The position numbers were made by a program, and so were the translations under genes. Of a stretch of 64,000 nt of DNA, positions 12,353 through 54,024 are shown one piece after another. The notes beneath the pieces were generated by a model. It was not told the origin of the DNA and did not search any database. It saw only the letters and a program-made list of their open reading frames with translations. Position 1 is the first letter of the stretch. Each line of letters starts with the position of its first letter. The stretch is from Actinomycetota bacterium (GTDB lineage: Bacteria > Actinomycetota > Thermoleophilia > Gaiellales > Gaiellaceae): positions 127,131-191,130 of the forward strand of contig JBBPIJ010000003.1 in assembly GCA_038040395.1 (NCBI GenBank), in the 5' to 3' direction.

Positions 12353-13378
12353 ATGCTCCGAAACTTGCTGAGCTTCGGCGTTACCGTCATGCCGGACCCG
12401 CCCTACGGGCGCCTGATCGAGCTCTTTCAGCGCGCCGAGGAGCAGGGCTTCGAGTACGGGTGGACGTACGACTCGCACATCCTCTGGCAGGAGTCCTACG
12501 CGCTTCTGCCGCTCGCCGCGGCCCAGACAAAGACCCTCAAGCTCGGCCACTGCGTCACGAATCCGGGCATCCGCGACCCGACGATCACGGCGAGCTGGTA
12601 CGCGACCATGCAGGACGTCTCCAAGGGCCGGATGGTGATGGGCATCGGCCGCGGCGACTCCTCGCGGCGCGTCGTCGGCCTCAAGCCCGTCAAGATCGTC
12701 GAGTTCGAGCGGCGTCTGCGGATGATGAAGGACCTGATGAACGGCCGCCCGGTCGAGTGGAACGAGAAGGATCTCACGCTCGAGTGGGCCCGCGAGCTAC
12801 CGGAGATCCCGATGCACGTCGCGGCCTACGGGCCACGTGCGCTCGGCGTCGCGGGCCGCGTCGGCGACGGCGTCATCATCCAGCTCGCCGACCCGCAGAT
12901 CATCCAGTGGATCATGGAGACGGCCCGCACCGCGGCCACCGAGGAGGGCCGCGACCCCGACGCGCTCGAGTGCATCGTCTGCGCGCCGAGCCACATCGGC
13001 GACGACATCGCCGACGCGCGCGAGCAGGTGCGCTGGTTCCCGGCGATGGTCTCGAACCACGTCATGGACCTGATCGAGCGCTACGGCTTCGACTCCGAGA
13101 TCCCGGCGGCGCTGACCGACTACGTGAAGGCGCGGAAGTTCTACGACTACAAGGACCACAGCCGGGTCGGCGCCAAGCACGGCGAGTTTGTCACCGACGA
13201 GATCTGCGACCGCTTCTGTGTGCTGGGGACGGCCGAGCAGGCGACGGAGAAACTGAAGGAGCTCGAGTCGATCGGCGTCGACCAGTTCAACATCTACCTG
13301 ATGACCGAGGGCCAAGACGAAACGCTCGCCGCCTATGGCAAGGAGATCATCCCGCAGTTCAGCGGTGTCGCGGCTTAG
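12353..13378 (+). CDS. LLM-class (luciferase-like) oxidoreductase, probably F420-dependent
   Basis: The N-terminus FGVTVMPDPPY..GFEYGWTYDSHILWQE, plus GHCVTNPGIRDP and MGIGRGDS, fit TIM-barrel LLM proteins of the F420-dependent type. Confidence 0.75.
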   Translation: MLRNLLSFGVTVMPDPPYGRLIELFQRAEEQGFEYGWTYDSHILWQESYALLPLAAAQTKTLKLGHCVTNPGIRDPTITASWYATMQDVSKGRMVMGIGRGDSSRRVVGLKPVKIVEFERRLRMMKDLMNGRPVEWNEKDLTLEWARELPEIPMHVAAYGPRALGVAGRVGDGVIIQLADPQIIQWIMETARTAATEEGRDPDALECIVCAPSHIGDDIADAREQVRWFPAMVSNHVMDLIERYGFDSEIPAALTDYVKARKFYDYKDHSRVGAKHGEFVTDEICDRFCVLGTAEQATEKLKELESIGVDQFNIYLMTEGQDETLAAYGKEIIPQFSGVAA

Positions 13379-13511
13379 GGCGAGACCTCCTCTTCGCAGC
13401 GTGTGGTCCGGGCAGCGAGTGCGAGCCCACCTCGCCTATGTCGACCAATCGGATGCTTCAAAGAATCCCGGGGTGGCGAAGGCGTGCTGCCCGCTCCATC
13501 ATTCCAGGGAA

Positions 13512-15998
13512 ATGCGCGATCTTCCCTCTGGAACGGTCACCTTTCTCTTCACGGACATCGAGGGCTCGACGTCGCTCCTGAACAACCTCGGTGACGAGTA
13601 CGCCGCCGTTCTCGCCGAACATCGACGGATCCTCCGTTCCGCATTCACGAAGCGCGGGGGGGTCGAGGTCGACACGCAGGGAGACGCATTCTTCTACGCG
13701 TTCACGCGGGCCGGCGATGCGGTCAAGGCGGCGAGCGAGGGGCAAGACGCTCTTGCCGAGGGCCCGCTCCGAGTACGGATCGGAGTTCACACCGGCGAGC
13801 CGCTCGTCACGGACGAGGGCTACGTCGGGCTCGATGTCCACCGCGCAGCGCGCATCGCCGCCACGGCCCACGGAGGGCAGGTGGTGATCTCGCAAACGAC
13901 GCGCGATCTTCTCGATTCCGGGATCGAGCTGCGGGAACTGGGTGCCCACCGCCTAAAGGATCTCGTAGAACCTCAGCGGCTCTACCAACTCGGCTTCGAC
14001 GAGTACCCGCCGCTCAGGAGCCTCAACCAAACGAACCTTCCAATCCAGCTGACGCCGCTCATCGGCCGCGAGCACGAGGTAGAGGATTTGCTCACTGTCC
14101 TCCGCCGCGACGACGTCCGCCTTCTCACCTTGACCGGCGCCGGCGGGACCGGAAAGACCCGTCTTGCTCTTCAAGTGGCGGCTGAGCTGGTCGAGGAGTT
14201 CGAGGATGGTGTCTTCTGGGTTTCACTCGCGTGGATCAGCGATCCCGAACTCATCGTGCCCACGATCGCGCAGACGTTAGGTGTGCGTGAGGTCCCCGGC
14301 GAGTCCCTGCCCGCCACGCTGGTTACCTATATCGACGAGAAGCGGCTTCTGCTCTTGCTCGACAACTTCGAGCAGGTGCTCGGCGCCGCTCCAGCGGTCG
14401 CCGAGATGCTTGCCGCCTGTCCGATGCTGGAGCTCCTTGTCACGAGCCGCGAATGCCTGCACGTCAGCGGCGAGTGGGAGTACCCGCTCCAGCCGCTTGT
14501 CGAGGGTGACGCCGTCGCTCTCTTCAGCGAGCGCGCACGGGCCGCACAGCCCGACTTCAAGGCGAACGCCGCGGTAGGTGCGATCTGCCGGGCGCTGGAC
14601 GGGCTGCCGCTTGCGATCGAGCTCGCGGCAGCCCGCGTCAAGGTGCTTCAGCTCGAACAGATCCTCGCCCGGCTCGAGCACCGGCTCGAGCTGCTCACCG
14701 GCGGTACACGCGACTCGCCTGAGCGACAGCGGACGCTGCGGGCGACGATCGGGTGGAGCTACGACCTGCTCGACGAGGAGGAGCAGTCCATCTTCGCCCG
14801 TCTTGCCGTCTTTGTCGGCGGCTGCACGCTCGCGGCGGCCGAGCAGATCTGCATGGCCGAGCTCGACACGCTCCACTCCCTCGTCGACAAGAGCCTGCTC
14901 CGCCAGACCGAGGGCGGGCGCTTCTCAATGCTGGAGACGATCCGCGAGTACGCGACCGAGCGACTAGATGAGTCGAGCCGGGGGGATGAGCTCCGGCGAC
15001 GGCACGTCGAGCACTACCTCGCGCTCGCCGAGGACGAGAGCGACGAGCGGACCTGGCTCGCTCGACTTGCGGCCGAGCACGACAACGTGCGCGCCGCGCT
15101 CATCTTCCAGCGCGGGGAAGGAGAGCCCGCGCTCTTACTCCGCTTTTGCCGTGTCCTCGGCCCGTTCTGGTTCCTACGCGGGTACTGGGATGAGGGCCGC
15201 ACATGGCTCGAAGACGCACTCGCACTCGCTCCCGAGCCGACGGTGATGAGGGGGAACGCGCTGAGGGAACTCTCTAGCCTCGAGTGGCACCGTGACCTTG
15301 AGCGGGGCCGTGCTGCGGCGGAGGAAGCGATCGCAATCTTCCGTGCTCTCGGCGATGAGGACGGTCTCGCCGGTTCACTGACGTCGGCAGGAACGTTTTT
15401 GAGCATGAGCGGCGCGACAGCCGAGGCAAGGGTGCTTTTCGAGGAAGCGGCCGAGGTGGCGACTCGCTCAGGCAACCGCAAAAACCTCAGCATGGCGCTC
15501 GGCAACCTCGGCTCAGTCGCGTTCATGGAACACGACTACGAGGGTGCGTGCGATTTCTTTGAGCAGGTGCTCGAGATTTCCCGGACGATCGGCCACCGAT
15601 ATGGCACGGCGGTCGCCATCTCCAACCTTGGCATGGCAGCATTTCAGCTCGGCCACTACGCCGACGCACTCACCCGGTTCCAGGAGAGCCTGGTGGTGAG
15701 TCGAGACATTGAATACAAGGAGGGGCTGGCGTACGGCATCCAGTTTGCCGGTGCAGCGTTCGCTTTCCTCGGTGACGCTGCTCGGTCAGCTCGCCTGATG
15801 GGTTACAGCGAGGTCCTTCACGAGGAGCTCGCGAGCAAGCTACCGAGTGACGAAATGGAGATGCGCGATACTGCGCTCGCGGCGCTGAGGCGGCAACTCG
15901 GCGAGCGCCTGGACACCCTGTTCGCCGAAGGTCAGGCACTGGCGTTCGAGGAGGCGATCGAGGCCGCGCTCGCGGAGCCGCGCAGCCGGGCTACTTAG
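13512..15998 (+). CDS. Cyclase / STAND NTPase / TPR protein, alpha subtype
   Basis: It has MRDLPSGTVTFLFTDIEGSTSLLN, TQGDAFFYAF, DVHRAARI, P-loop GAGGTGKTRLA, LLLLDNFEQ and LDGLPLAIELAA, with a TPR-like C-terminus. The start is taken at the conserved MRDLP (the track ORF starts at 13335). Only the last ~35 nt of the shared leader are recognisable upstream. Confidence 0.85.
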   Translation: MRDLPSGTVTFLFTDIEGSTSLLNNLGDEYAAVLAEHRRILRSAFTKRGGVEVDTQGDAFFYAFTRAGDAVKAASEGQDALAEGPLRVRIGVHTGEPLVTDEGYVGLDVHRAARIAATAHGGQVVISQTTRDLLDSGIELRELGAHRLKDLVEPQRLYQLGFDEYPPLRSLNQTNLPIQLTPLIGREHEVEDLLTVLRRDDVRLLTLTGAGGTGKTRLALQVAAELVEEFEDGVFWVSLAWISDPELIVPTIAQTLGVREVPGESLPATLVTYIDEKRLLLLLDNFEQVLGAAPAVAEMLAACPMLELLVTSRECLHVSGEWEYPLQPLVEGDAVALFSERARAAQPDFKANAAVGAICRALDGLPLAIELAAARVKVLQLEQILARLEHRLELLTGGTRDSPERQRTLRATIGWSYDLLDEEEQSIFARLAVFVGGCTLAAAEQICMAELDTLHSLVDKSLLRQTEGGRFSMLETIREYATERLDESSRGDELRRRHVEHYLALAEDESDERTWLARLAAEHDNVRAALIFQRGEGEPALLLRFCRVLGPFWFLRGYWDEGRTWLEDALALAPEPTVMRGNALRELSSLEWHRDLERGRAAAEEAIAIFRALGDEDGLAGSLTSAGTFLSMSGATAEARVLFEEAAEVATRSGNRKNLSMALGNLGSVAFMEHDYEGACDFFEQVLEISRTIGHRYGTAVAISNLGMAAFQLGHYADALTRFQESLVVSRDIEYKEGLAYGIQFAGAAFAFLGDAARSARLMGYSEVLHEELASKLPSDEMEMRDTALAALRRQLGERLDTLFAEGQALAFEEAIEAALAEPRSRAT

Positions 15999-17181: not shown

Positions 17182-17297
17182 ATGCCCCCGGCATGAATCG
17201 AACATGCGCACGCGGTTTAGGAACTAGCGTGCCGAAAGGCTATTTGCAGGGGAAAGTGCGCCTTTCGTGGGGCTGCGCGCCAGTGAATGCGCCAGTG
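17182..17297 (+). repeat. Copy A: tRNA-Arg(CCU) 3'-half-like 41-nt core + conserved ~115-nt module (tRNA sense is on the minus strand)
   Basis: The core TGCCCCCGGCATGAATCGAACATGCGCACGCGGTTTAGGAA lies at 17183-17223. It is followed by CTAGCGTGCCGAAAGGCTATTTGCAGGGGAAAG and TGCGCGCCAGTGAATGCGCCAGT. The ATG of the next gene is 156 nt from the module start. Confidence 0.95.
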
Positions 17298-17337
17298 CTC
17301 TAGCGAAGGTCCGCGGCTCGCCCCATCATTCAGGCGA

Positions 17338-19932
17338 ATGCGCAACCTCCCTTCCGGAACCGTCACCTTCCTCTTCACCGACGTCGAGGGCTCGACCAAG
17401 CTTCTGCACGAGCTCGGGCCTGATCGCTACGCGGAGGCGCTAGCAGAGCACCGCCGCGTCGTGCGGGAGGCTTTCGGCGGCCACGGAGGGGTTGAGGTCG
17501 ACACCCAGGGCGACGCTTTTTTCGTCGCCTTCCCGACGGCTCCGGGTGCGCTCGAGGCAGCTGCCCAGGCGCTGCAGGCACTCGCCTCGGGCTCGATCCG
17601 GGTGCGGATCGGCATCCATACCGGCACGCCGCACGTGGCCGATGAGGGCTACGTCGGGGTCGACGTGCACCGCGCAGCGCGCATCGCCGCCGCCGGCCAC
17701 GGCGGGCAGGTACTCCTGTCGGAGACGACTCGCAATCTCGTAAGGATGGAGGTGCGCGATCTCGGTCTTCATCGGCTGAAGGATCTGGCCGAGCCGCTGC
17801 GGCTGTTCCAGTTGGGTGACGGCGACTTCCCGCCGCTCAAGACGCTGTACCGTACGAACCTGCCCGTTCCGGCCAGCGTGTTTGTGGGCCGCAGGCGCGA
17901 GGTCGCAGAGGTGGCGGCCGTACTCGCTCGCGCTGACGTGCGTCTCTTGACGCTGACGGGGCCGGGCGGAACGGGCAAGACGCGGCTCGGGTTGCAGGCA
18001 GCTGCTGACGCGTCGGATCGCTTTCCGGACGGAGTTTTTTGGGTGGGCTTGGCTGCTCTGGACGACCCACAGCTGGTACTGCCGAGCGTCGCGGACGCGC
18101 TCGAGGCGAAGGATGACTCGGCGGTGCACATCGCCGACAAGCGGATGCTCCTGTTGCTCGACAACTTCGAGCAGGTCGTGGACGCCGCGAACGATGTGGC
18201 CGCGCTGATTGGCGACTGCCCGAATCTGAACGTGATCGTGACCAGTCGCGAGCCACTGCACGTGACCGGCGAGCGGGTGTACGCCGTTCCCCCGCTAGAG
18301 GAACGTGACGCGACGTCGCTGTTTCGCGAGCGCGCGATCGCCGTGCGGTCGGATTTCAGCGCCGACGGTGTCGTGGGGGAGATCTGCCGCCGCCTGGAGG
18401 GTCTGCCGCTCGCGATTGAACTGGCTGCGGCGCGTATCAACGCGCTCTCGCCGGCGGCGATCCTCGAGCGGTTGCAGGAGCGGCTGCCCCTGCTGACGGG
18501 TGGCCCGCGTGACGCCCCGGAGCGCCACCGGACCCTCCGCGCGACGATCGGATGGAGCTACGAGCTGCTCACTCCGAACGAGCAGCGGCTGTTCGCTCGC
18601 CTCGCGGTGTTCGCAGGCGGCTGCACGCTCGAAGCGGCCGAGCATGTCTGCGACGCCGATCTCGACACTCTCGCGTCGCTGGTCGACAAGAGCCTCGCCC
18701 GCCATCGCGACGACCGCTACTGGATGCTCGAGACGGTTCGCGAGTACGCGGATGAGCAACTCGAAGCGACCGGAGAGCCAACTGAACTCCATCGGCTGCA
18801 CGCCGACTGGTTCAAAAGACTCGCGCGGACGGCTGAGCCGGAGCTCCGAGCGTTGCACCAACGGCCGTGGCTGGACGCGCTCGAGCGTGAGCTCCACAAC
18901 TTCCGTCGAGCTCTCACGTGGGCGCTCGAGGAGGGCGAGTGCGAGCTCGCGCTCACGCTCTTGAACGCCCTCGACCGATTCTGGGGGAATAAGGGGCGGT
19001 CTGCGGAAGCGCTCGCATGGTTCGATGGCGCGCTCGCGAAGGGTTCCGAGCTGCCGGTGGACATCCGTGCGCGGGCGCTGTGGATCGCTGGGAGGCACGC
19101 GGGGTTGGTTGACCGACGCGCACGTGCGCAAGCGCTGCTCGAGGAAGCCGCGCCTCTCCTCGCCCACGCCGGACGGCGAGAAGATCACGTGTTCTGCCTG
19201 TGTGAGCTCGCGAGCATCCAGCAAAGAGCCGGAAACGCGGTTGAAGCGACGCGGCTGTTGGATCAGGCGGTCAGGGAAGCGAAGGACCTCGGCCAGCCGC
19301 GCGCCTTGTCTGCAGCGCTCGGAGCTCGCAGCCATCTAGCAAGCGCGCGCGGCGACTACGCGGGCGCCCTCTCCCTGGCCGAGGAGAGCCTGTCGCTACG
19401 GCGCACCCTGAACGATCCCGCCGTCGTGCTCTCGTCTCTGTACGCGGTCGCACTCGCCGCGCTTGACGTCGGTGACGAGCATCGGGCCCGGATTCTGTTC
19501 CGCGAAGCCCTTGAGCTGGCGCGCAATCTTGGTCACCTCGTCATGATCGCTGCGTCGGCGGCGAACCTGGGCTATCTCGAGCTCTTCGGCGGCAATACAA
19601 CCGAGGCGCGGTCGCTGCTCCGGGAAGGCCTGAAGACCTTCACGGAGATGGGGCGTGAGAGTTTCGTAGCCGACTGCGTCAGCGGCGTCGCCGCCGTCGA
19701 AGCGGCCGAAGGCCGGCCCCGGTTCGCCGTCGTGCTGTGGGCCGCTGTCGACGCATCCTTCGCGCGCGTCGGTGGTCAGCTCGACCCGATCGATTCGCTT
19801 GGACGACAGCGGTTCGAGCCCCGCGCGAGGGCCACGCTCAGCGCCGAAGACCTGGTAGCGGCAGCCGAAGAAGGAGCTGCGATGACACTCGACGTGGCGA
19901 CCCAGCTCGCCCTTGAGACGTCGACGGAGTGA
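17338..19932 (+). CDS. Cyclase / STAND NTPase / TPR protein, beta subtype
   Basis: It has MRNLPSGTVTFLFTDVEGSTKLLHELG, TQGDAFFVAFPTAPGALEAA, DVHRAARI, GPGGTGKTRLG, LLLLDNFEQ and LEGLPLAIELAA, with a TPR-like tail. Confidence 0.85.
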   Translation: MRNLPSGTVTFLFTDVEGSTKLLHELGPDRYAEALAEHRRVVREAFGGHGGVEVDTQGDAFFVAFPTAPGALEAAAQALQALASGSIRVRIGIHTGTPHVADEGYVGVDVHRAARIAAAGHGGQVLLSETTRNLVRMEVRDLGLHRLKDLAEPLRLFQLGDGDFPPLKTLYRTNLPVPASVFVGRRREVAEVAAVLARADVRLLTLTGPGGTGKTRLGLQAAADASDRFPDGVFWVGLAALDDPQLVLPSVADALEAKDDSAVHIADKRMLLLLDNFEQVVDAANDVAALIGDCPNLNVIVTSREPLHVTGERVYAVPPLEERDATSLFRERAIAVRSDFSADGVVGEICRRLEGLPLAIELAAARINALSPAAILERLQERLPLLTGGPRDAPERHRTLRATIGWSYELLTPNEQRLFARLAVFAGGCTLEAAEHVCDADLDTLASLVDKSLARHRDDRYWMLETVREYADEQLEATGEPTELHRLHADWFKRLARTAEPELRALHQRPWLDALERELHNFRRALTWALEEGECELALTLLNALDRFWGNKGRSAEALAWFDGALAKGSELPVDIRARALWIAGRHAGLVDRRARAQALLEEAAPLLAHAGRREDHVFCLCELASIQQRAGNAVEATRLLDQAVREAKDLGQPRALSAALGARSHLASARGDYAGALSLAEESLSLRRTLNDPAVVLSSLYAVALAALDVGDEHRARILFREALELARNLGHLVMIAASAANLGYLELFGGNTTEARSLLREGLKTFTEMGRESFVADCVSGVAAVEAAEGRPRFAVVLWAAVDASFARVGGQLDPIDSLGRQRFEPRARATLSAEDLVAAAEEGAAMTLDVATQLALETSTE

Positions 19933-20102: not shown

Positions 20103-20270
20103 TGTACGAAGTCATCCCAGGCCGCCGCCGGTCTGCGGGATCTGGCGATTCCGGTCGCCTCGCTGGTGGTCTTCGCGCTCGTCGCGGCGGTCGCGGGGGT
20201 CGCCGCCGCGGCGCTCCCGGCGCGGCGCGCGGGCCGGCTCAACGTCCTCGCCGCTCTCCAGTACGAGTAG
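20103..20270 (+). pseudogene. C-terminal remnant of an FtsX/MacB-type ABC permease
   Basis: Frame 3 reads ..AAGLRDLAIPVASLVVFALVAAVAGVAAAALPARRAGRLNVLAALQYE*. This is the typical last TM helix and PARRAxRL..ALRYE ending of FtsX-family permeases. An in-frame stop lies at 20049, and no start or upstream domains are present. Confidence 0.6.
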
Positions 20271-20301: not shown

Positions 20302-20362
20302 TGGAGCTAGTCGGACTCGAACCGACGACCTCCTGGGTGCGATCCAGGCGCTCTCCGCACTA
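20302..20362 (-). pseudogene. tRNA-Ala(CGC) remnant lacking the 5' acceptor strand and D-stem
   Basis: The reverse complement reads ..AGTGCGGAGAGC-G-CCTGG/ATCGCAC/CCAGG-AGGTC-GTCGG/TTCGAGT/CCGAC-TAGCTCC-A. There is no complementary GGAGCTA 5' strand upstream. Confidence 0.65.
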
Positions 20363-20499: not shown

Positions 20500-20563
20500 C
20501 GAGCCGACTGGACCACTTCCATGGGTAAGGAGGGGGTCTCCGGTTCGAGTCCGGAAGAGGGCT
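20500..20563 (+). other. Degenerate tRNA-like fragment (T-arm + acceptor 3' strand)
   Basis: It reads TCCGG/TTCGAGT/CCGGA-AGAGGGC-T, preceded by an imperfect anticodon-arm-like CTTCC/ATGGGTA/AGGAG. No matching 5' acceptor strand is present. Confidence 0.3.
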
Positions 20564-20581
20564 TCAAGGCGGGTCGTGTTT

Positions 20582-21349
20582 TCAGTGGGTATGCCCGTCG
20601 CGACCAGCTTCGCCCGCCGTCCGCCGTGCTTCCTCGAACGCCTCGAGTATGTCTTCCTGGCGAGGTGGAGACTCCAGAGTGTCGGCAAGGCGATCAAAGG
20701 GAAACCCGGTCGCACGGATCTTCTCGACTGTGGCTCCCACGTCGTAGATCGTCCGACGAAGCGTGACACCTGGGCCGAGGAGAGCCCAGTAGGCGCCGGG
20801 CTCCCGCTCGTAGGGCATCCCGACGCTCCCCGGATTGACAACTCGCACCGGGCTCTTGCGGTCGTACTGCATGTGGGTATGGCCACAGACGACGACGTGC
20901 TGCTCCACGTCCTCGAGTACTCGAACCAGCACGTCGTCCGGCGTGGCCTTCGTTATGAACTCCTCGTCACTGCGGGGGGTCGCGTGGCAGAAGAGCGTCG
21001 GCCCGAGCCATTCGATGTCGATCGCGACCGTCCTCGGAAGTCTTGCAACGAACTCGAGCTGATCATCGTCCAGCCGCTCCGCCGTCCAGCGGACAGGGGC
21101 GACGAGGTGAGGCGGGAGTTCCTCGGTCTCGTCGAGGCGGTCGACGACCTCGCGCTCGCTGTTCCCCGCAATGACGATGGCACGCTCGCCAAGCGCTCGC
21201 AGTCGCTCGATCGTCTCACTTGGGAAGGGGCCCCAGATGAAGTCGCCGCCGATGACGAGTCGATCGACGGGGAGCTTCTCGACCTCGGTCAGCACGGCCT
21301 CGAGGGCCGGGAGGTTGCCGTGGATGTCGTAGAGGGCGGCGACGCGCAT
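20582..21349 (-). CDS. Calcineurin-like metallophosphoesterase
   Basis: Motifs DIHGN, GGDFIWGP, GNSE and CGHTH are present. It is the last gene of a tight minus-strand four-gene cassette. Confidence 0.8.
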   Translation of the reverse strand: MRVAALYDIHGNLPALEAVLTEVEKLPVDRLVIGGDFIWGPFPSETIERLRALGERAIVIAGNSEREVVDRLDETEELPPHLVAPVRWTAERLDDDQLEFVARLPRTVAIDIEWLGPTLFCHATPRSDEEFITKATPDDVLVRVLEDVEQHVVVCGHTHMQYDRKSPVRVVNPGSVGMPYEREPGAYWALLGPGVTLRRTIYDVGATVEKIRATGFPFDRLADTLESPPRQEDILEAFEEARRTAGEAGRDGHTH

Positions 21350-21360
21350 TCGGCCGTGAG

Positions 21361-22284
21361 TTATGCGGAGCTGAACCGCCAGGTCTCAGCTACGCCAAGG
21401 CGGGCGAGAAGCCTACGGGCCTTGTCTAGGCGTTCCTCCAGATCGCGGTCGCTCGAATCGAAGAGAAAGCCAGCTAGGTCTCCACTGTGAGCGACCTGCA
21501 GACCTAGGGCGCCAACGTCCCGCACCTGCTGCTCCAGCGCCTCCAGCTGGGGCACCGGCAGGTGTCGCTGGTTCAGTCGCGCGCTCGTGCTCGCGACGAC
21601 ACCGACGGCATGTACGTCATCTTCGGCAAGCGCGTCGCGTAGGAGGAGCCTGAGCCTCTCGAATTCATTCACTTCGCCCGCCGAGTAGCGGGCGGGGGGG
21701 AAATCGAGCGTTGAGACTCCGGACCCATCGAGGCTGGTCGAGAAGCCCAGCACGTCCAGGCTCGGGAGGGGGACGCCGAAGTCCTCGAGGACGACGCCGT
21801 CACGCTGGGCGAACAGCACGGCGCGGTCGAACATCAGCGGGTCGGACGCGACCTCGGACCGGACCGCGAGCGCTGCGATTGCCGCCTGGTCCATCTGAGC
21901 GCCGGCCGCGGAGAGGATCGCTCGGACCGCGGCGACGATGTCGCTCGTGGAGGAGCCAAATCCGCGGCACACGGGAATCGCACCACGGATGACGAGGTGG
22001 GCGCCGACGTCGTCCAGGCCGAGCGCGTCCAATGCGAGGCGCGCGGCCGTGAGAGCCTTGACCTTCCACGCCGGCGTGACCTCTACCGTCCGCACCCCCG
22101 GCTCGAGAGAGGCGCGCACCTCAGCCTGGAACAGCGTGCATTGGAGGGTAACGAGGCCGCGCACGCACCTTCCATCGACCGAGAAGACGCCTTGCAGGAT
22201 CTCGCCGTGATGAGTGCCGGCTCGACCGATCCCGACCTCGGCGCCCTCCTCCCTGGACGCGTGAACGGTGCCGTGCCCGGTCAA
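21361..22284 (-). CDS. GHMP-family kinase, PduX (L-threonine kinase)-like
   Basis: It has the N-terminal GTHHGEILQG and GHMP motif II PVCRGFGSSTSD. It overlaps the upstream gene by 4 nt. Confidence 0.7.
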   Translation of the reverse strand: MTGHGTVHASREEGAEVGIGRAGTHHGEILQGVFSVDGRCVRGLVTLQCTLFQAEVRASLEPGVRTVEVTPAWKVKALTAARLALDALGLDDVGAHLVIRGAIPVCRGFGSSTSDIVAAVRAILSAAGAQMDQAAIAALAVRSEVASDPLMFDRAVLFAQRDGVVLEDFGVPLPSLDVLGFSTSLDGSGVSTLDFPPARYSAGEVNEFERLRLLLRDALAEDDVHAVGVVASTSARLNQRHLPVPQLEALEQQVRDVGALGLQVAHSGDLAGFLFDSSDRDLEERLDKARRLLARLGVAETWRFSSA

Positions 22285-24119
22285 GGCATCACCGCGGCTG
22301 CGGGCTCGGCCGTCAGGATTCCGGCGAGGGCGGCCGCGAAACGCCTGTTCTCGACCGGAGTCCGGGCCTTGACCCGAAGGTAGCCGTGCGCCTCCGACAT
22401 CGATTTTCCAGAGCAGTCCTTCACGAGCAGATCGTGCTCCACGAAGAGCCGTTGCGCGACGTCCGGCCCATCGACGCCCCCGGGGAGCCGGACGAAGCAG
22501 AAGCTCGCGCTCGAGGGTGACACCTCGACCCCCGGAATCTCTCTCAGGAGCGAGGCCAGCTCGTCGCAGTCGCGGCGGACGCGGCGACAGCTTTCCTCGA
22601 GCATCTTCCTGTAGCGGGGCAAGAGGCGGAGAAACGCCTCGGCTACGCCGTTGACGTTCCAGATCGGCAGCTTCGCGCGGACGAGGGCGGCGAGGTCGGC
22701 GTTTTCGGTCAGCAGGTAGGCGAGTCGGAGGCCAGGGATGCCGCAGGACATGCTGAAGCTCTTCACGACCGCCAGATTCGGATGAGCGTCGATTTCGTCC
22801 CTCAGCGTTTGCAAAGCCGGATCGGCGCAGAAGTCGACGAATGACTCGTCGACGATGAACAGCGTGCCGCGGCGCGCGAATCTCTCGGATAGGTCGAGGA
22901 GCTCCTCGCGCGGAACCACGAGTGAGGTCGGGTTGTTCGGAGAGCTGACGACGGCGAGCTCGACATCGGCCGCGTCGGCCGCCCCGAAGAACGTGTCCGC
23001 GTCAAGGCGGAACGCCGGAGGCTGAAGCGCAAAGCGGACGAGCTGACCTGGATGAAGCGCCTGTTCGTACTCGTTGAAAGTCGGGACAGGCACGACAGCA
23101 CGTCGAGTAACCGACCCGCAGACGACCTTGATCAGCTCCGAAGCGCCATTCGCGACGACGAGGCGATCTGGCGGCTGCTCGACGATGCCCGCCATCAGGC
23201 GCGCCAGTGTCGCTTGCCCCGCGGGATAGTCGGTCGCGACGCGGTCGAGCTCTTGCCGTAGATCGCGCAGCATCGGCTCCGGAGGGAAGTACACGTTGGT
23301 CATCACGAGGTGATCGACGGCACCGTGCCGCTGGAATCCGCCATGGCCACGCGCGAGCATCGCGAACCGCTCCTCCGGAGTCGAGAAGACGTACTCGGCC
23401 GTTTCCCAATCGTCGGCGTCGTCGATCTCACACCAGCGGCTGCAATCGACCGCTCGGAGACTGAGCCGTCCGCCGTGAATCGCCTCGGAGAGCACGGCCT
23501 CGTAGAAGTCCTGAACGCGCCCCTCTTCGATGAACCGCTCGAGGCCGGGGACGAGCTCCTCGCGAAGGAACGCTCTGCGCAGTACATAGACACTGGCGGT
23601 CTTGCGCGCAGGTTCGAAAGCGGGCTCGTCATCTCTGATGTCAACCATTCGGGCGACGTAGTTCTCGTCGTCGAGCTCGACCACCGTCCCTGTCATGCCA
23701 GGCTCGTACGCCGCCACCGGCACCAGGCTGTCCTCGCCCGGGCCGTCGAGCGCAACGAGCAGCTCTTGGTCGAAGACGACGTCACCGTCGAGTAAGTAGA
23801 CATCCTGGTCAAGCTCCTCGCGGGCGAGCCAAAGGGAATAGACGTTGTTCGTGGTTCGGTAGCGGTCCGAGACCGCGTAGCTAATCGTCAGGTCTTCAAT
23901 GGCGGACGAGATCTGGTCCAGGGAAGAGACGATCTCGTCGCCGCGGTGCCCGACGACGATGACGACCTCCCGGACGCCCCCGTTCCCCAGAGTGCGAAGT
24001 GTCCGATGCAGGAGCGGGATGCCCGCGACGGGGAGCAACGGCTTGAGCTCGCTCGCCGCCCTGCCGAGGCGGGTGCTTTGTCCCGCGGCCAGGATCACAG
24101 CCTTCGCGGGCCGGCTCAC
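22281..24119 (-). CDS. Bifunctional nucleotidyltransferase :: class I/II PLP enzyme (CobD/HisC-like decarboxylase/aminotransferase) fusion
   Basis: The N-terminus has AVILAAGQSTRLG..LLPVAG (NTP-transferase loop). The C-terminal half has VANGASELI, VSSPNNPTS, DESFVDF and KSFSMSCGIPGLRLAY. Confidence 0.75.
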   Translation of the reverse strand: MSRPAKAVILAAGQSTRLGRAASELKPLLPVAGIPLLHRTLRTLGNGGVREVVIVVGHRGDEIVSSLDQISSAIEDLTISYAVSDRYRTTNNVYSLWLAREELDQDVYLLDGDVVFDQELLVALDGPGEDSLVPVAAYEPGMTGTVVELDDENYVARMVDIRDDEPAFEPARKTASVYVLRRAFLREELVPGLERFIEEGRVQDFYEAVLSEAIHGGRLSLRAVDCSRWCEIDDADDWETAEYVFSTPEERFAMLARGHGGFQRHGAVDHLVMTNVYFPPEPMLRDLRQELDRVATDYPAGQATLARLMAGIVEQPPDRLVVANGASELIKVVCGSVTRRAVVPVPTFNEYEQALHPGQLVRFALQPPAFRLDADTFFGAADAADVELAVVSSPNNPTSLVVPREELLDLSERFARRGTLFIVDESFVDFCADPALQTLRDEIDAHPNLAVVKSFSMSCGIPGLRLAYLLTENADLAALVRAKLPIWNVNGVAEAFLRLLPRYRKMLEESCRRVRRDCDELASLLREIPGVEVSPSSASFCFVRLPGGVDGPDVAQRLFVEHDLLVKDCSGKSMSEAHGYLRVKARTPVENRRFAAALAGILTAEPAAAVMP

Positions 24120-24128
24120 CCGACCATT

Positions 24129-25550
24129 CTAGAACCCGCTGCCGAGCGCCCCCGGGCTCAGCGCAGGCATTTCTGCGTGGGCCTCGACGTCATCTACGCC
24201 GAGCAGTGAGCTGAGGGCAGCTCGCCCCACATCGTGCTGGTAGAGCCAAACGCTCGTGATCGCGCGCTCGTTGCTCGGCTCCCCGCCAACGCGCTTCGGG
24301 GCCCGGATGCCCACGCCGAGCCCGTACGACAACACGCCGGGGAGCGCGCGGCCGCGCCGATCGACGACCTCGGCATCGCCGGTCACGACGAGGCCGGCCG
24401 AGGATCGCGCGGGCTCGATGCGGGCCCCGGACTCTTCGAAGAGCTCCGGAAGCTGTGGTTCGTACCCCGTAGCGGCCACCACCAGGCCCGCTTCGCCGAG
24501 GGCAGCGGCTGCCTCGCGCCCGTCGTCGGTCGCTCCGAGCCGGAGGAGTCGTATTGGGAGACCGTTCTCGGCGAAGCCGAGCGCTCGGCGGGCGAGCTCC
24601 CGCGCATCGCCCTTGAGTCCGGCCACCCGGTTCACGCGCCCGCTCACCGGGCAGACGTCTCGCTTGGGATCAAAGGGGTACTGCTCCGCTTCCGCATCCG
24701 CCGTCGTGAGGTAGAAGAGCCGGATGGGACTCCGGTGCATGAGCGTCACGGTCGGCGGCATGCCGCGTTCGGTCCTGAACCTTGGATCATTCATCATCAG
24801 CCACGCGAGGGACCACGCGCTGTGCGAACCCCCGATGACCGCCACGCGCCCGGACGTCCTGACGGCGTCGATCAGACGGCGTGGCAAACAGATTCTCTCG
24901 TCGAAGAGCGCCGACGCGTGCCGCACTTTGGGTGCATAGGGCTCGAGCGTCAGCCCAGGAAGGATCTCGAGCTTCTCGAGGTGGTCAGGCGCTCGCCCAC
25001 CCATCGCGATCACGGCCTTATCGGCCCGGACGACACGAGCCGCGCCGTTTTCGGTGGCAACCGCAACGCCGCGGTCACCGACGCGCACCTCCCTCACCGT
25101 CGTCTCGCGTGCGACCGCGCAGGCGGAATGGCTCTCGAGGATCGCCTCGATCGCAGCCCCCAGCGAATCGAGATACGCCCCCGCGAGTTGCAGTGGTGCG
25201 TGCACGCCGCTCATCTTTCGCAGCTCCGCGGTCGCGGCGTCACCCCGCACGTCGTCAAACGGCCCGCTCTCGGGGATCTCGTCGAGCCCTTCGAGAAACG
25301 CGACGGCGAGCGAGTTCGACGAGATTGTGTAGTGACGCAAGCTGCCGCCGCCCAGACCCTGGCCGCGTTCAATGACGAGGACGCCCCGATCGAGGAGCTC
25401 GTCGAGGCGCCCTGTACGCGCTGCGCAGACGAACGGGCCGAGCGTTGCGGGGCCGCCACCGCAGAAGACAACTCCGAACTCCGCTTTCTTCCGCACGTCG
25501 GAAGCCAGGGGCCGGCGCAACTTTCCGACGCTTATCTCGGGAGTTGCCAC
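24129..25550 (-). CDS. Class B flavoprotein monooxygenase-like (N-hydroxylating / FMO-type) enzyme
   Basis: It has two dinucleotide-binding motifs (FCGGGPATLG and VIGGSHSAWS) and an ATGY motif (VVAATGYEP). Confidence 0.6.
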   Translation of the reverse strand: MATPEISVGKLRRPLASDVRKKAEFGVVFCGGGPATLGPFVCAARTGRLDELLDRGVLVIERGQGLGGGSLRHYTISSNSLAVAFLEGLDEIPESGPFDDVRGDAATAELRKMSGVHAPLQLAGAYLDSLGAAIEAILESHSACAVARETTVREVRVGDRGVAVATENGAARVVRADKAVIAMGGRAPDHLEKLEILPGLTLEPYAPKVRHASALFDERICLPRRLIDAVRTSGRVAVIGGSHSAWSLAWLMMNDPRFRTERGMPPTVTLMHRSPIRLFYLTTADAEAEQYPFDPKRDVCPVSGRVNRVAGLKGDARELARRALGFAENGLPIRLLRLGATDDGREAAAALGEAGLVVAATGYEPQLPELFEESGARIEPARSSAGLVVTGDAEVVDRRGRALPGVLSYGLGVGIRAPKRVGGEPSNERAITSVWLYQHDVGRAALSSLLGVDDVEAHAEMPALSPGALGSGF

Positions 25551-25609
25551 ATCAGTCTCCGGCTCAACACGCCTCGACTACCAGACGCAAGGAGCCACCC
25601 ACATCTTGC

Positions 25610-25857
25610 CACTAGGACGAACATGACGGCGGCCAGCACGCTTTCAGGGACGGACGGAGCTTCTTCCCCGGCGACGAACCGCTCGATCTCGTCAGCGATG
25701 TCGAGTGACAGGTAGATGCCGAAGTAGTCGTTGCCTGAGACGCGCATCAGCCGCGCATTGGGGATGCGCGACGCCACGTCCATCGTCTCGGCCTCGTACA
25801 AGGAGCGGTAGAGGAGCTGGTACGCAATCGCGCGACTCCACCGTTTCGCGCGTACTG
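25610..25857 (-). pseudogene. Remnant of the junction of an alpha/beta-hydrolase::cyclase fusion gene
   Basis: ..ASRIPNARLMRVSGNDYF..IADEIERFVAGEEAPSVPESVLAAVMF resembles a hydrolase C-terminus running into the start of a cyclase domain. Homology stops after VMF, and an in-frame stop lies just upstream (about 25858). Confidence 0.3.
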
Positions 25858-27498: not shown

Positions 27499-27576
27499 CA
27501 GAGGGCCCGGCTTGCCGGGCCCTCTGTCGTTTCCTCCCAGAGGGCCCGGCTTGCCGGGCCCTCTGTCGTTTCCTCC
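27499..27576 (+). terminator. Tandemly duplicated (2 x 39 bp) GC-rich hairpin, probable intrinsic terminator
   Basis: The unit cagagggcccggcttgccgggccctctgtcgtttcctcc occurs twice, back to back. Each unit has a 10-bp perfect stem followed by TGTCGTTTCC. Confidence 0.6.
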
Positions 27577-50378: not shown

Positions 50379-50494
50379 ATGCCCCCGGCATGAATCGAAC
50401 ATGCGCACGCGGTTTAGGAACTAGCGTGCCGAAACGCCATTTGCAGGGGAAAGTGAGCCTCTCGGCCAGCTGCGCGCCAGTAAATGCGCCAGTG
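50379..50494 (+). repeat. Copy F: 41-nt core + ~115-nt module
   Basis: The core lies at 50380-50420. The ATG of the next gene is 156 nt from the module start. Confidence 0.95.
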
Positions 50495-50534
50495 CTCTAG
50501 GGAAGGTGCGCAGCTCGCCCCATCATTCAGGCGA

Positions 50535-53868: not shown

Positions 53869-53983
53869 GTGCCCCCGGCATGAATCGAACATGCGCACGC
53901 GGTTTAGGAACTAACGTGCGAAAACCTCATTTGCAGGCAAAATCCAGCTTCGAACCGGGGTGCGCGCCAGTGAATGCGCCAGC
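53869..53983 (+). repeat. Copy H: 41-nt core + ~115-nt module
   Basis: The core lies at 53870-53910, and the first base is G instead of A. The ATG of the next gene is 156 nt from the module start. Confidence 0.95.
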
Positions 53984-54024
53984 CCGCTAGACGCGACTTA
54001 CGCGCGCGTCCCATCATTCGCCCA

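What the first reader, a model, noticed from the sequence alone, without database searches (positions are those of the whole stretch)
20582..25550. Four-gene cassette resembling the late FR-900098 (FrbH/FrbG) chemistry but with a kinase instead of a phosphonate-forming enzyme
Four minus-strand genes are tightly packed, with gaps of 9, -4 and 11 nt. In transcription order they are:
- a class-B flavin monooxygenase-like protein (two GxGxxG-type motifs plus ATGY)
- a nucleotidyltransferase fused to a CobD/HisC-like PLP enzyme
- a PduX-like GHMP kinase
- a metallophosphoesterase

Established knowledge:
- PduX phosphorylates L-threonine, and CobD decarboxylates L-threonine-O-3-phosphate in cobalamin linker synthesis.
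- In FR-900098 biosynthesis (Streptomyces rubellomurinus), FrbH is exactly such a nucleotidyltransferase::PLP-decarboxylase fusion. It makes a CMP-conjugated amino-phosphonate and decarboxylates it.
- FrbG is a flavin N-hydroxylase acting on the CMP conjugate, and a hydrolase later releases CMP.

Inference: here a kinase could generate an O-phospho-amino acid, which is isosteric with the phosphonate substrate. That product could then be CMP/NMP-activated, decarboxylated, N-oxygenated and released by the phosphoesterase. The result would be an N-hydroxy-amino-alkyl phosphate, or an activated head group for a surface polymer.

No PEP mutase, acetyltransferase or transporter is visible. The cassette lies between a tRNA-Ala remnant and a gene remnant, so it looks acquired.
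Basis: partly seen in the sequence, partly recalled or inferred. Interest (0 to 1): 0.66.

Follow-up and report, generated by a model that had tools for sequence, protein, structure and literature searches.

The report
Kinase-fed FrbG/FrbH-like cassette lacking PLP lysine
Four tightly packed genes look like the late steps of an antimalarial phosphonate (FR-900098) pathway rebuilt to start from a kinase-made phospho-amino acid, but the supposed decarboxylase domain has lost its catalytic lysine, so the chemistry is probably not a simple copy.

Summary
In detail: four minus-strand genes with gaps of 9, -4 and 11 nt. They encode a class-B N-hydroxylase-like flavoprotein, an NTP-transferase::CobD-like fusion, a PduX/DabA-family GHMP kinase and a YfcE-type metallophosphoesterase.

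The FrbG/FrbH analogy holds by context. The flavoprotein and the fusion are each 43% identical to an adjacent pair in a metagenome cluster that also carries PEP mutase, a homocitrate-synthase-like gene, aconitase and an extra DXP reductoisomerase. All flavoprotein-linked fusions form one clade, apart from the far commoner fusions that sit next to CDP-alcohol phosphatidyltransferase or LicD.

The conserved core is three genes: flavoprotein, fusion and kinase, found in 5 of 5 close loci with unrelated flanks. A sixth relative swaps the GHMP kinase for an SbnI-type serine kinase. The phosphoesterase is present in only 3 of 6 loci.

New finding: every member of this subfamily lacks the PLP Schiff-base lysine (M457 here). 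It has also gained C459, C518, C541 and K584, yet the domain is still under constraint. The "decarboxylated" step is therefore unproven.

Best reading: a phosphate-ester, CMP-handled, N-oxygenating small-molecule pathway starting from Thr or Ser. It is a new variant of a known kind.

The parts
24129..25550 (-). FrbG-type flavoprotein (class-B N-hydroxylating monooxygenase-like), 473 aa. A GGAGA Shine-Dalgarno-like sequence lies 6 nt upstream of the GTG at 25550. Public gene calls start 18 codons later.
   Evidence: The AF2 model has pLDDT 89.7. Top Foldseek matches are DesB, SidA, KtzI and PvdA, at E about 1e-12 and TM about 0.5. Motifs are GGGPA, GGSHSA and ATGY. It is 43% identical to the flavoprotein of the PEP-mutase/dxr cluster L100 and 41% identical to P0205, which UniRef names 'FrbG'.
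23385..24119 (-). N-terminal nucleotidyltransferase domain of the fusion (about aa 1-245). The signature reads AAGQSTR...LKP, keeping R17 and K26.
   Evidence: NTP_transf_3 4e-14. PDB hits are inositol-1-phosphate and phosphocholine cytidylyltransferases 2xme and 1jyk. R17 and K26 are invariant in the family. The second Gly of GxGxR is Ser in most of the clade.
22305..23252 (-). C-terminal CobD/HisC-like fold-type-I PLP domain of the fusion (about aa 290-605), without the Schiff-base lysine. The M457 codon is at 22749-22751.
   Evidence: TIGR01140 scores 169.8 bits against a cut-off of 290.55. M457 aligns with the motif lysine of 6oux and 1lc5. Changes specific to the subfamily are K457 to M/V/A/P, Y459C, R518C, V541C, A/S584K, W263Q and Y274T. 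The domain is 66% conserved within the clade, against 60% for the NTP domain.
21361..22284 (-). GHMP kinase of the PduX/DabA (COG4542) family; probable L-threonine (beta-hydroxy-amino-acid) kinase.
   Evidence: GHMP_kinases_N 1.3e-11. Motifs are GEILQG and PVCRGFGSSTS. JGI labels homologues 'involved in propanediol utilization'. It is 49-54% identical to kinases that sit beside a PALP enzyme, ATP-grasp/argininosuccinate-lyase-like genes and NRPS genes, which is the dabABC pattern (PMC10906522).
20582..21349 (-). YfcE-type metallophosphoesterase. It is an accessory member of the cassette and a candidate CMP-releasing hydrolase.
   Evidence: Metallophos_2 1.5e-17. TIGR00040 scores 54.9 bits against a cut-off of 56.25. 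PDB 3rqz matches at 1e-15. Metal-ligand motifs DIH8-10, GD35-36, GNSE62-65, H122 and GHTH156-159 are intact. Homologues are present only in L001 and L002.
20302..20356 (-). 3' fragment of a tRNA-Ala(CGC)-like gene, a possible former integration site.
   Evidence: The sequence was read directly. The 32-nt T-arm plus acceptor string is unique in the window. The T-arm hairpin folds. There is a weak match to the tRNA/tmRNA clan and no intact tRNA.
25610..25801 (-). Truncated gene remnant directly upstream of the cassette.
   Evidence: The ORF at 25532-25801 was read by eye as ...IPNARLMRVSGNDYF...DEIERFVAGEE...VLAAVMF, then breaks off. There is no Pfam hit.
20139..20270 (+). C-terminal remnant of a membrane-protein gene (...LPARRAGRLNVLAALQYE*), typical of FtsX-type permease ends (my knowledge).
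   Evidence: Translation. No complete ORF lies upstream in that frame.

Best explanation
The block is a small, self-contained biosynthetic module. Its conserved core is kinase + NTP-transferase::PLP-like fusion + N-oxygenase.

Proposed steps (all inferred from homology and synteny; none shown biochemically):
1. The GHMP kinase phosphorylates a beta-hydroxy amino acid, most likely L-threonine. A relative uses an SbnI-type serine kinase instead.
2. The N-terminal domain of the fusion joins the O-phospho-amino acid to CMP using CTP, as FrbH does with its phosphonate substrate.
3. The CobD-like domain processes the CMP conjugate. In FrbH this step is PLP-dependent decarboxylation. Here the Schiff-base lysine is missing while the other PLP-site residues are kept, so there are three options: decarboxylation proceeds without an internal aldimine, the reaction has changed, or the domain only binds the substrate.
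4. The FrbG-type flavoprotein N-oxygenates the amino group of the CMP conjugate, using NADPH and O2.
5. In the window, L001 and L002, the metallophosphoesterase cleaves the CMP-phosphate link. This would release an N-hydroxy (or further oxidised) aminoalkyl phosphate.

Overall this is FR-900098 late-stage logic moved from a PEP-mutase-derived phosphonate to a kinase-derived phosphate ester, with a rewired PLP domain.
For: - Gene order and tight spacing.
- The trio flavoprotein-fusion-kinase is conserved in L001, L002, L092 and L093, with unrelated flanks and host GC from 57 to 70%.
- L028 carries the same Lys-less fusion and flavoprotein, but its neighbour is an ethanolamine-phosphate-cytidylyltransferase::SbnI-like serine kinase. 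Two unrelated kinases next to the same pair argue that an O-phospho-amino acid is the input.
- L100 shows that homologues of the pair (43% each) sit with PEP mutase, a FrbC-like gene, aconitase and an extra dxr.
- An NJ tree puts all flavoprotein-linked fusions in one clade.
- FrbH cytidylylates first and then decarboxylates (PMC8976061). FrbG acts on the CMP conjugate (PMC7347517).
- The flavoprotein model matches N-hydroxylases.
- The kinase is homologous to DabA-context kinases.
- The phosphoesterase metal ligands are intact.
- No PEP-mutase motif occurs in the window or in the five other Lys-less loci.
Against: - M457 replaces the PLP lysine, so step 3 is not established.
- The phosphoesterase is absent from 3 of 6 loci.
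- No acyltransferase, transporter or resistance gene (dxr) is in the cassette or the window, so no hydroxamate end product can be named.
- Kinase specificity rests on about 50% identity to kinases whose activity is itself shown only genetically (PMC10906522).
- No direct comparison with S. rubellomurinus FrbG, FrbH or FrbI was possible.
- Nucleotide specificity (CTP) is assumed.
Confidence: 0.5

Rival explanations
1. The CobD-like domain no longer decarboxylates. The pathway keeps the amino-acid carboxylate as far as the flavoprotein. The flavoprotein then N-hydroxylates the alpha-amine of a CDP-linked phospho-amino acid. Two rounds would give an oxime by spontaneous decarboxylation, as in oxime-forming N-oxygenases. 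The PLP-like domain would serve only as a binding or scaffold module.
For: The catalytic lysine is lost in all 16 close homologues and in L028, with no conserved replacement at that position. Several more distant family members have also lost it.
Against: - The other PLP-site residues (D424, N396, S456, R465) are retained.
- The domain is at least as conserved as the NTP domain.
- Coordinated gains (C459, C518, C541, K584) suggest a new active site rather than a passive one.
Confidence: 0.2
2. The module makes a CDP-activated amino-alcohol head group, possibly N-modified. A transferase encoded elsewhere would then attach it to a lipid or a surface glycan, as most members of the fusion family appear to do.
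For: Among 80 GTDB loci, 43 have a CDP-alcohol phosphatidyltransferase and 14 a LicD gene immediately downstream of the fusion. Half of the Lys-less loci lack a CMP-releasing phosphoesterase.
Against: - No such transferase lies within reach in any of the six Lys-less loci.
- The flavoprotein-linked fusions form a separate clade.
- An adjacent phosphodiesterase in the window would destroy the donor.
Confidence: 0.15
3. It is a phosphonate-tailoring module, with the PEP mutase and early genes lying elsewhere in the genome.
For: L100 and several distant family members (L105, L121, L127, L165) have a PEP mutase next to the fusion.
Against: - A dedicated amino-acid kinase is conserved in all six Lys-less loci, in two non-homologous forms, and is not needed for a phosphonate.
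- No PEP-mutase motif occurs in the 64-kb window or in those loci.
Confidence: 0.05
4. It supplies (R)-1-amino-2-propanol phosphate for the cobalamin nucleotide loop (Thr kinase plus CobD), with the other two genes unrelated.
For: The best curated hit of the PLP domain is CobD, and some kinase homologues are named L-threonine kinase or BluE.
Against: - The CobD score is far below the cut-off, and the catalytic lysine is absent.
- The domain is fused to an NTP-transferase and is always paired with an N-oxygenase.
- No cob genes were seen near the cassette in the window or its relatives.
Confidence: 0.03

Closest known systems
Late steps of FR-900098 biosynthesis in Streptomyces rubellomurinus (FrbH, FrbG, FrbI)
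   Same: - An N-terminal cytidylyltransferase fused to a CobD-like domain.
- An adjacent upstream class-B N-hydroxylase-type flavoprotein.
- A hydrolase candidate to remove the nucleotide handle.
- The same clade as the pair in a PEP-mutase/FrbC/aconitase/dxr cluster.
   Different: - The input comes from a kinase (phosphate ester), not from PEP mutase (phosphonate).
- The PLP lysine is absent.
- There is no FrbF-type acetyltransferase and no dxr resistance gene.
- The hydrolase is optional across relatives.
- I could not establish the FrbI family, so FrbI/phosphoesterase homology is untested.
PEP-mutase-free actinomycete and Erwinia clusters carrying a FrbG-like/FrbH-like pair (L003, L010, L014, L048, L083, L086, L087, L095)
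   Same: - Flavoprotein (41-46%; 29% in Erwinia) directly upstream of the fusion (46-50%; 34% in Erwinia).
- No PEP mutase within 10 kb.
   Different: - Those fusions keep the lysine.
- They come with an 820-aa Antibiotic_NAT+HAD protein, MaoC/SDR, ATP-grasp, A-PCP-C genes and an MFS exporter, plus a CDP-alcohol phosphatidyltransferase in Erwinia.
- They have no kinase and no metallophosphoesterase.
DabA/PduX/BluE L-threonine kinases and the SbnI serine kinase (supply of O-phospho-amino acids to PLP enzymes)
   Same: A dedicated kinase makes O-phospho-Thr or O-phospho-Ser for a downstream PLP-fold enzyme. The window kinase is 49-54% identical to DabA-context kinases. L028 uses an SbnI-like domain.
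   Different: The downstream partner here is a CobD-like domain fused to a cytidylyltransferase. It is not a cysteine-synthase-like beta-replacement enzyme or free CobD.
Fusion + CDP-alcohol phosphatidyltransferase or LicD loci (Kennedy-like head-group pathways)
   Same: The same two-domain architecture, presumably producing a CDP-amino-alcohol.
   Different: They form a separate clade, keep the lysine, have a transferase downstream, and lack a flavoprotein.
Fosfoxacin, the natural phosphate analogue of fosmidomycin from Pseudomonas fluorescens
   Same: An N-hydroxy-aminoalkyl phosphate would be its immediate un-acylated precursor type. Phosphoserine is isosteric with the FrbH substrate (my inference; compound described in PMC9782300).
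   Different: There is no formyl- or acetyl-transferase and no dxr here. The Pseudomonas flavoprotein homologue P0221 stands alone without a fusion. No held paper describes fosfoxacin biosynthesis.

Membership tests
FrbH-type bifunctional cytidylyltransferase/PLP decarboxylase | N-terminal MobA-like NTP-transferase domain with the catalytic Arg and Lys of the GxGxRx(n)PK signature | tested here: met
   NTP_transf_3 4e-14. R17 and K26 are invariant. The second Gly is Ser. FrbH K38A abolishes its activity (PMC6697681).
FrbH-type bifunctional cytidylyltransferase/PLP decarboxylase | C-terminal CobD/HisC-like fold-type-I domain | tested here: met
   TIGR01140 7.9e-50, 6oux 3.8e-36 and 1lc5 1.6e-23.
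FrbH-type bifunctional cytidylyltransferase/PLP decarboxylase | Schiff-base lysine in the S-x-S-K motif | tested here: not met
   M457 aligns with the motif lysine of 1lc5 and 6oux. The lysine is absent in 16 of 16 close homologues and in L028, and present in 104 of 104 other first-search hits.
FrbH-type bifunctional cytidylyltransferase/PLP decarboxylase | Same clade as fusions from FR-900098-type clusters, next to a FrbG-type gene | tested here: met
   NJ tree. L100 context.
FrbH-type bifunctional cytidylyltransferase/PLP decarboxylase | Cytidylylation followed by decarboxylation of the CMP conjugate | not testable with these tools
   This needs enzymology. The FrbH sequence itself was not available for direct comparison.
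FrbG-type / class-B flavin N-hydroxylase | FAD and NADPH dinucleotide motifs plus the ATGY motif | tested here: met
   GGGPA 31-35, GGSHSA 240-245 and ATGY 360-363.
FrbG-type / class-B flavin N-hydroxylase | Fold of N-hydroxylating monooxygenases | tested here: met
   Model pLDDT 89.7. Top 30 Foldseek hits are mostly DesB, SidA, KtzI, PvdA and putrescine N-hydroxylase, at E about 1e-12 but TM only about 0.5. No curated Pfam or NCBIfam model reaches threshold.
FrbG-type / class-B flavin N-hydroxylase | Orthology to S. rubellomurinus FrbG | tested here: inconclusive
   It is 43% identical to the flavoprotein of the PEP-mutase/dxr cluster L100 and 41% identical to P0205, named FrbG in UniRef. No FrbG chain was found in the PDB copy by sequence or by profile.
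L-threonine kinase (PduX/BluE/DabA, GHMP) | GHMP motifs and homology to kinases of dabABC operons | tested here: met
   PMC10906522.
L-threonine kinase (PduX/BluE/DabA, GHMP) | A curated model reaching its cut-off, or demonstrated substrate specificity | tested here: not met
   The best NCBIfam hit is thrB at 35.7 bits against a cut-off of 168. The substrate cannot be tested here.
CobD (cobalamin L-threonine-O-3-phosphate decarboxylase) | Equivalog score, catalytic lysine and a cob gene context | tested here: not met
   169.8 bits against 290.55. M457. No cob genes near the cassette.
YfcE-type metallophosphoesterase | The five metal-ligand motifs and the family model | tested here: inconclusive
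   All motifs are present. TIGR00040 scores 54.9 against a cut-off of 56.25, just below. Pfam Metallophos_2 is well above its cut-off.
   The PLP domain matches CobD/HisC. The NTP domain matches LicC and inositol-phosphate cytidylyltransferases. No glycan genes are adjacent.

The most novel reading that the evidence does not exclude
The Lys-less, cysteine-enriched CobD-like domain (M457, C459, C518, C541, K584) has acquired a new reaction on a CMP-linked (N-hydroxy)amino acid. I recall a precedent: the NDP-sugar dehydratases E1 and ColD lost the PLP lysine when they changed chemistry. Together with the kinase and the FrbG-type oxygenase, the domain would form a phosphonate-independent route to N-oxygenated aminoalkyl phosphates, which are fosfoxacin-type antimetabolite precursors.
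Probability: 0.17. Interest if true: 0.8.

Novelty: new variant of a known kind. Interest (0 to 1): 0.62.

Why it matters
FR-900098 and fosmidomycin are clinically studied DXR inhibitors. Their natural phosphate analogue, fosfoxacin, has no biosynthesis described in the papers I could search.

A conserved gene trio feeds a kinase-made phospho-amino acid into FrbH/FrbG-type enzymes. This gives a directly testable route to phosphate-ester versions of this chemistry.

It also supplies a natural experiment on what a fold-type-I PLP domain does after losing its Schiff-base lysine while staying under selection.

Finally, it shows that the 'FrbH' architecture is a very large family, used mostly for lipid or glycan head groups and only rarely for phosphonates.

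Tried and rejected
- Direct comparison with FrbG, FrbH and FrbI failed. Johannes 2010 and Eliot 2008 are not held, and no FrbG chain was found in the PDB copy by phmmer or by profile. The FrbI family therefore stays unknown to me.
- The fosfoxacin lead through a Pseudomonas flavoprotein homologue (P0221) went nowhere. That gene stands alone.
- The JGI metagenome scan gave no relative above 46% identity, so the sample of the cassette clade stayed at five loci plus L028.
- ARAGORN at lowered thresholds gave only noise around the tRNA fragment.
- No direct repeat of the tRNA fragment flanks the cassette, so no att pair can be claimed.
- The sigma-70 promoter and terminator scan was uninformative.
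- There were no PADLOC hits, so a defence role was rejected.
- I could not measure distances between C459, C518, C541, C569 and K584, because model coordinates are not exposed.

Full report
**Observation**

They are separated by 9 nt, a 4-nt overlap and 11 nt.

Pfam, NCBIfam and PDB sequence searches give the following:
- The 473-aa protein has only sub-threshold FAD/NAD(P)-binding hits.
- The 612-aa protein has an N-terminal MobA-like NTP-transferase domain and a C-terminal class I/II aminotransferase-fold domain. Its best curated match is CobD (TIGR01140, 7.9e-50, below cut-off). Its best solved relative is 6oux, a threonine-phosphate-decarboxylase-like enzyme.
- The 307-aa protein is a GHMP kinase.
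- The 255-aa protein is a calcineurin-like metallophosphoesterase close to the YfcE group.

**The flavoprotein**

An AlphaFold model built on 38 homologues is confident (pLDDT 89.7). Its best structural matches are N-hydroxylating flavin monooxygenases: DesB, SidA, KtzI, PvdA and putrescine N-hydroxylase. These match at E about 1e-12 but with TM only about 0.5. A non-oxygenating reductase is therefore not the favoured reading. Thioredoxin-reductase-type folds do follow further down the list.

**Is the pair really FrbG/FrbH-like?**

I could not obtain the S. rubellomurinus sequences, and no FrbG chain turned up in the PDB copy. Context supplies the test instead.

- In metagenome contig L100, a flavoprotein 43% identical to the window's lies directly upstream of a fusion that is also 43% identical.
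- That pair is flanked by a homocitrate-synthase-like gene, an aconitase, a PEP mutase (PF13714, 1.3e-54) and an extra DXP reductoisomerase. From what I know of the frb cluster, this is its gene content.
- A Streptacidiphilus homologue, 41% identical, is named FrbG in UniRef.
- In a neighbour-joining tree of 56 fusions, all flavoprotein-linked ones, including the window's, form one clade. That clade is separate from the much more numerous fusions followed by a CDP-alcohol phosphatidyltransferase (43 of 80 GTDB loci) or a LicD gene (14 of 80).

The published roles are that FrbH cytidylylates 2-amino-4-phosphonobutyrate and then decarboxylates the CMP conjugate (PMC8976061), and that FrbG hydroxylates the CMP-linked amine (PMC7347517).

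**Co-occurrence**

- The fusion has 15 homologues at 58-76% identity, all from metagenomes.
- I could inspect four of their contigs. L001 and L002 carry all four genes in the same order. L092 and L093 carry flavoprotein-fusion-kinase but no metallophosphoesterase.
- In L092 a PAP2 phosphatase lies upstream. In L093 an aldehyde dehydrogenase and an amidohydrolase lie upstream, and an amidase lies downstream.
- The flanks are unrelated in every case, and host GC ranges from 57 to 70%.
- The clade is rare. It collapses to one full-length representative (P0007), plus P0356 and a fragment, in a 50%-identity library in which 378 proteins match at 1e-30. It has no relative above 50% in the GTDB species representatives or above 46% in the JGI contig set.

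**The kinase**

- JGI labels its homologues with the PduX COG name.
- Its 49-54% identical actinomycete relatives sit next to a cysteine-synthase-like PLP enzyme, ATP-grasp/argininosuccinate-lyase-like genes and NRPS genes.
- That is the dabABC pattern, in which DabA was shown genetically to be the L-threonine kinase feeding O-phospho-threonine to a PLP enzyme (PMC10906522).
- No curated model reaches its threshold, so the specificity is an inference.

**The unexpected point**

In the CobD-like domain, the residue that aligns with the motif lysine of CobD 1lc5 (sltKfyaipGLRLGY) and of 6oux is methionine (KSFSMSCGIPGLRLAY, M457, codon 22749-22751). From established knowledge of fold-type-I enzymes, this is the PLP Schiff-base lysine.

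- All 16 close homologues have M, V, A or P at this position. All 104 other hits of the first search have K.
- The same subfamily has fixed further changes: Y459C, R518C, V541C, A/S584K, W263Q and Y274T.
- The other PLP-site residues are retained.
- The domain is at least as conserved within the clade as the NTP-transferase domain, 66% against 60% pairwise.
- This looks like neofunctionalisation rather than decay.
- Some very distant family members have also lost the lysine. The structural-genomics 'CobD' 3fkd has a histidine there.

**A sixth locus sharpens the picture**

- The Vicinamibacterales MAG locus L028 carries the full Lys-less signature and the flavoprotein, but no GHMP kinase.
- The gene upstream of its flavoprotein encodes an ethanolamine-phosphate-cytidylyltransferase-like domain fused to a domain matching SbnI. 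The PDB names SbnI an O-phospho-L-serine synthase.
- Two unrelated hydroxy-amino-acid kinases beside the same pair argue that an O-phospho-amino acid is the input. The kinase is therefore functionally integral to the module.
- A Patescibacteria locus (L081) pairs an SbnI-like domain with a lysine-containing fusion. Kinase feeding is thus not restricted to the Lys-less form.

**Mechanism**

I commit, at about 0.5, to a kinase-fed, CMP-handled, N-oxygenating small-molecule pathway.
1. Thr (or Ser) is converted to the O-phospho-amino acid.
2. The phospho-amino acid is joined to CMP.
3. The conjugate is processed by the rewired PLP-like domain.
4. The flavoprotein N-oxygenates the amine.
5. Where the metallophosphoesterase is present, CMP is released.

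All steps are inferred from homology and synteny.

Rivals:
- A variant with a dead decarboxylase, ending in a carboxylate-retaining product or an oxime (0.2).
- A CDP-activated head-group donor for a transferase encoded elsewhere (0.15).
- Phosphonate tailoring with a distant pepM (0.05).
- Supply of the cobalamin linker (0.03).

No dxr, FrbF-like or SbnI-like gene is in the window, and there are no PADLOC hits.

**Acquisition**

- The cassette is bracketed by debris. Below it lie a permease-like C-terminal remnant, a 3' fragment of a tRNA-Ala(CGC)-like gene and a second T-arm-like fragment in inverted orientation (I4).
- Above it lies a truncated gene remnant.
- Together with the unrelated flanks in relatives, this supports mobility.
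- GC and codon-position GC are indistinguishable from the neighbours, and no att-like direct repeat was found.

**Novelty**

Within the held literature I found no description of this cassette, of a Lys-less FrbH-like enzyme, or of fosfoxacin biosynthesis. The library is incomplete, so this is absence of evidence only.

I rate the cassette a new variant of a known kind. It keeps the FrbG/FrbH logic but takes a phosphate-ester input and has an altered PLP domain.

Noticed in passing
L003, L010, L014, L048, L083, L086, L087 (Streptomyces, Kutzneria) and L095 (Erwinia rhapontici plasmid pERA53, 7716-18708): A conserved cluster is shared by actinomycetes and an Erwinia plasmid. It contains a FrbG-like flavoprotein, a lysine-containing FrbH-like fusion, an 820-aa Antibiotic_NAT+HAD protein (possibly FrbF-like), MaoC/SDR, HAD, ATP-grasp and MFS genes, plus A-PCP-C genes in actinomycetes or a CDP-alcohol phosphatidyltransferase in Erwinia. 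No PEP mutase lies within 10 kb. It could make an N-acyl-N-hydroxy-aminoethyl-phosphate (fosfoxacin-like) unit from phosphoserine.
   Followed up: partly
L005-L082, L084/L085, L096 (for example L084 10001-12617): Most members of the NTP-transferase::CobD-like family are followed immediately by a CDP-alcohol phosphatidyltransferase (43 of 80 loci) or a LicD gene (14 of 80, often with a class I/II aminotransferase upstream). A methyltransferase is sometimes present. This suggests a widespread bacterial and archaeal route from a phospho-amino acid to CDP-amino-alcohol head groups. I found no paper on it.
   Followed up: partly
L100 3680-14472: An uncultured-organism FR-900098/fosmidomycin-type cluster: FrbC-like, aconitase, FrbG-like, FrbH-like, PEP mutase and a reverse-strand DXP reductoisomerase (a likely self-resistance copy), followed by PCP and AMP-binding genes.
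   Followed up: partly
L028 7340-8599: A fusion of an ethanolamine-phosphate-cytidylyltransferase-like domain with an SbnI-like free serine kinase domain, directly upstream of the flavoprotein and the Lys-less fusion.
   Followed up: partly
window 27499-27576: A perfect tandem duplication of a 39-nt unit. Each unit contains a GC-rich palindrome (CAGAGGGCCCGGCTTGCCGGGCCCTCTG). It gives spurious weak miRNA-family hits in Rfam.
   Followed up: no
window 20525-20568 (+) versus 20312-20334: A second tRNA-like T-arm/acceptor fragment (GGTCTCCGGTTCGAGTCCGGAAGAGGGCTTCA). It is in inverted orientation to the tRNA-Ala fragment (23-nt arms, 87% complementary), just before the stop of the phosphoesterase gene.
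   Followed up: no
window 2830-5292, 13335-15998, 17287-19932, 50484-53045, 53974-56490: Five paralogous large proteins that begin with similar N-termini. The two that I scanned (13335-15998, 17287-19932) combine an adenylate/guanylate-cyclase domain with a STAND (NB-ARC) ATPase and TPR repeats. Two of the five (17287, 50484) have nearly identical N-termini (MRQCS.EG..LAPSFRRMR.LPSGT). Two further long ORFs at 56883 and 60884 begin with zinc-ribbon-like CxxC motifs.
   Followed up: no
PDB 3fkd (alignment): The Porphyromonas gingivalis protein deposited as L-threonine-O-3-phosphate decarboxylase has histidine (SFSH) where CobD has the PLP lysine.
   Followed up: no
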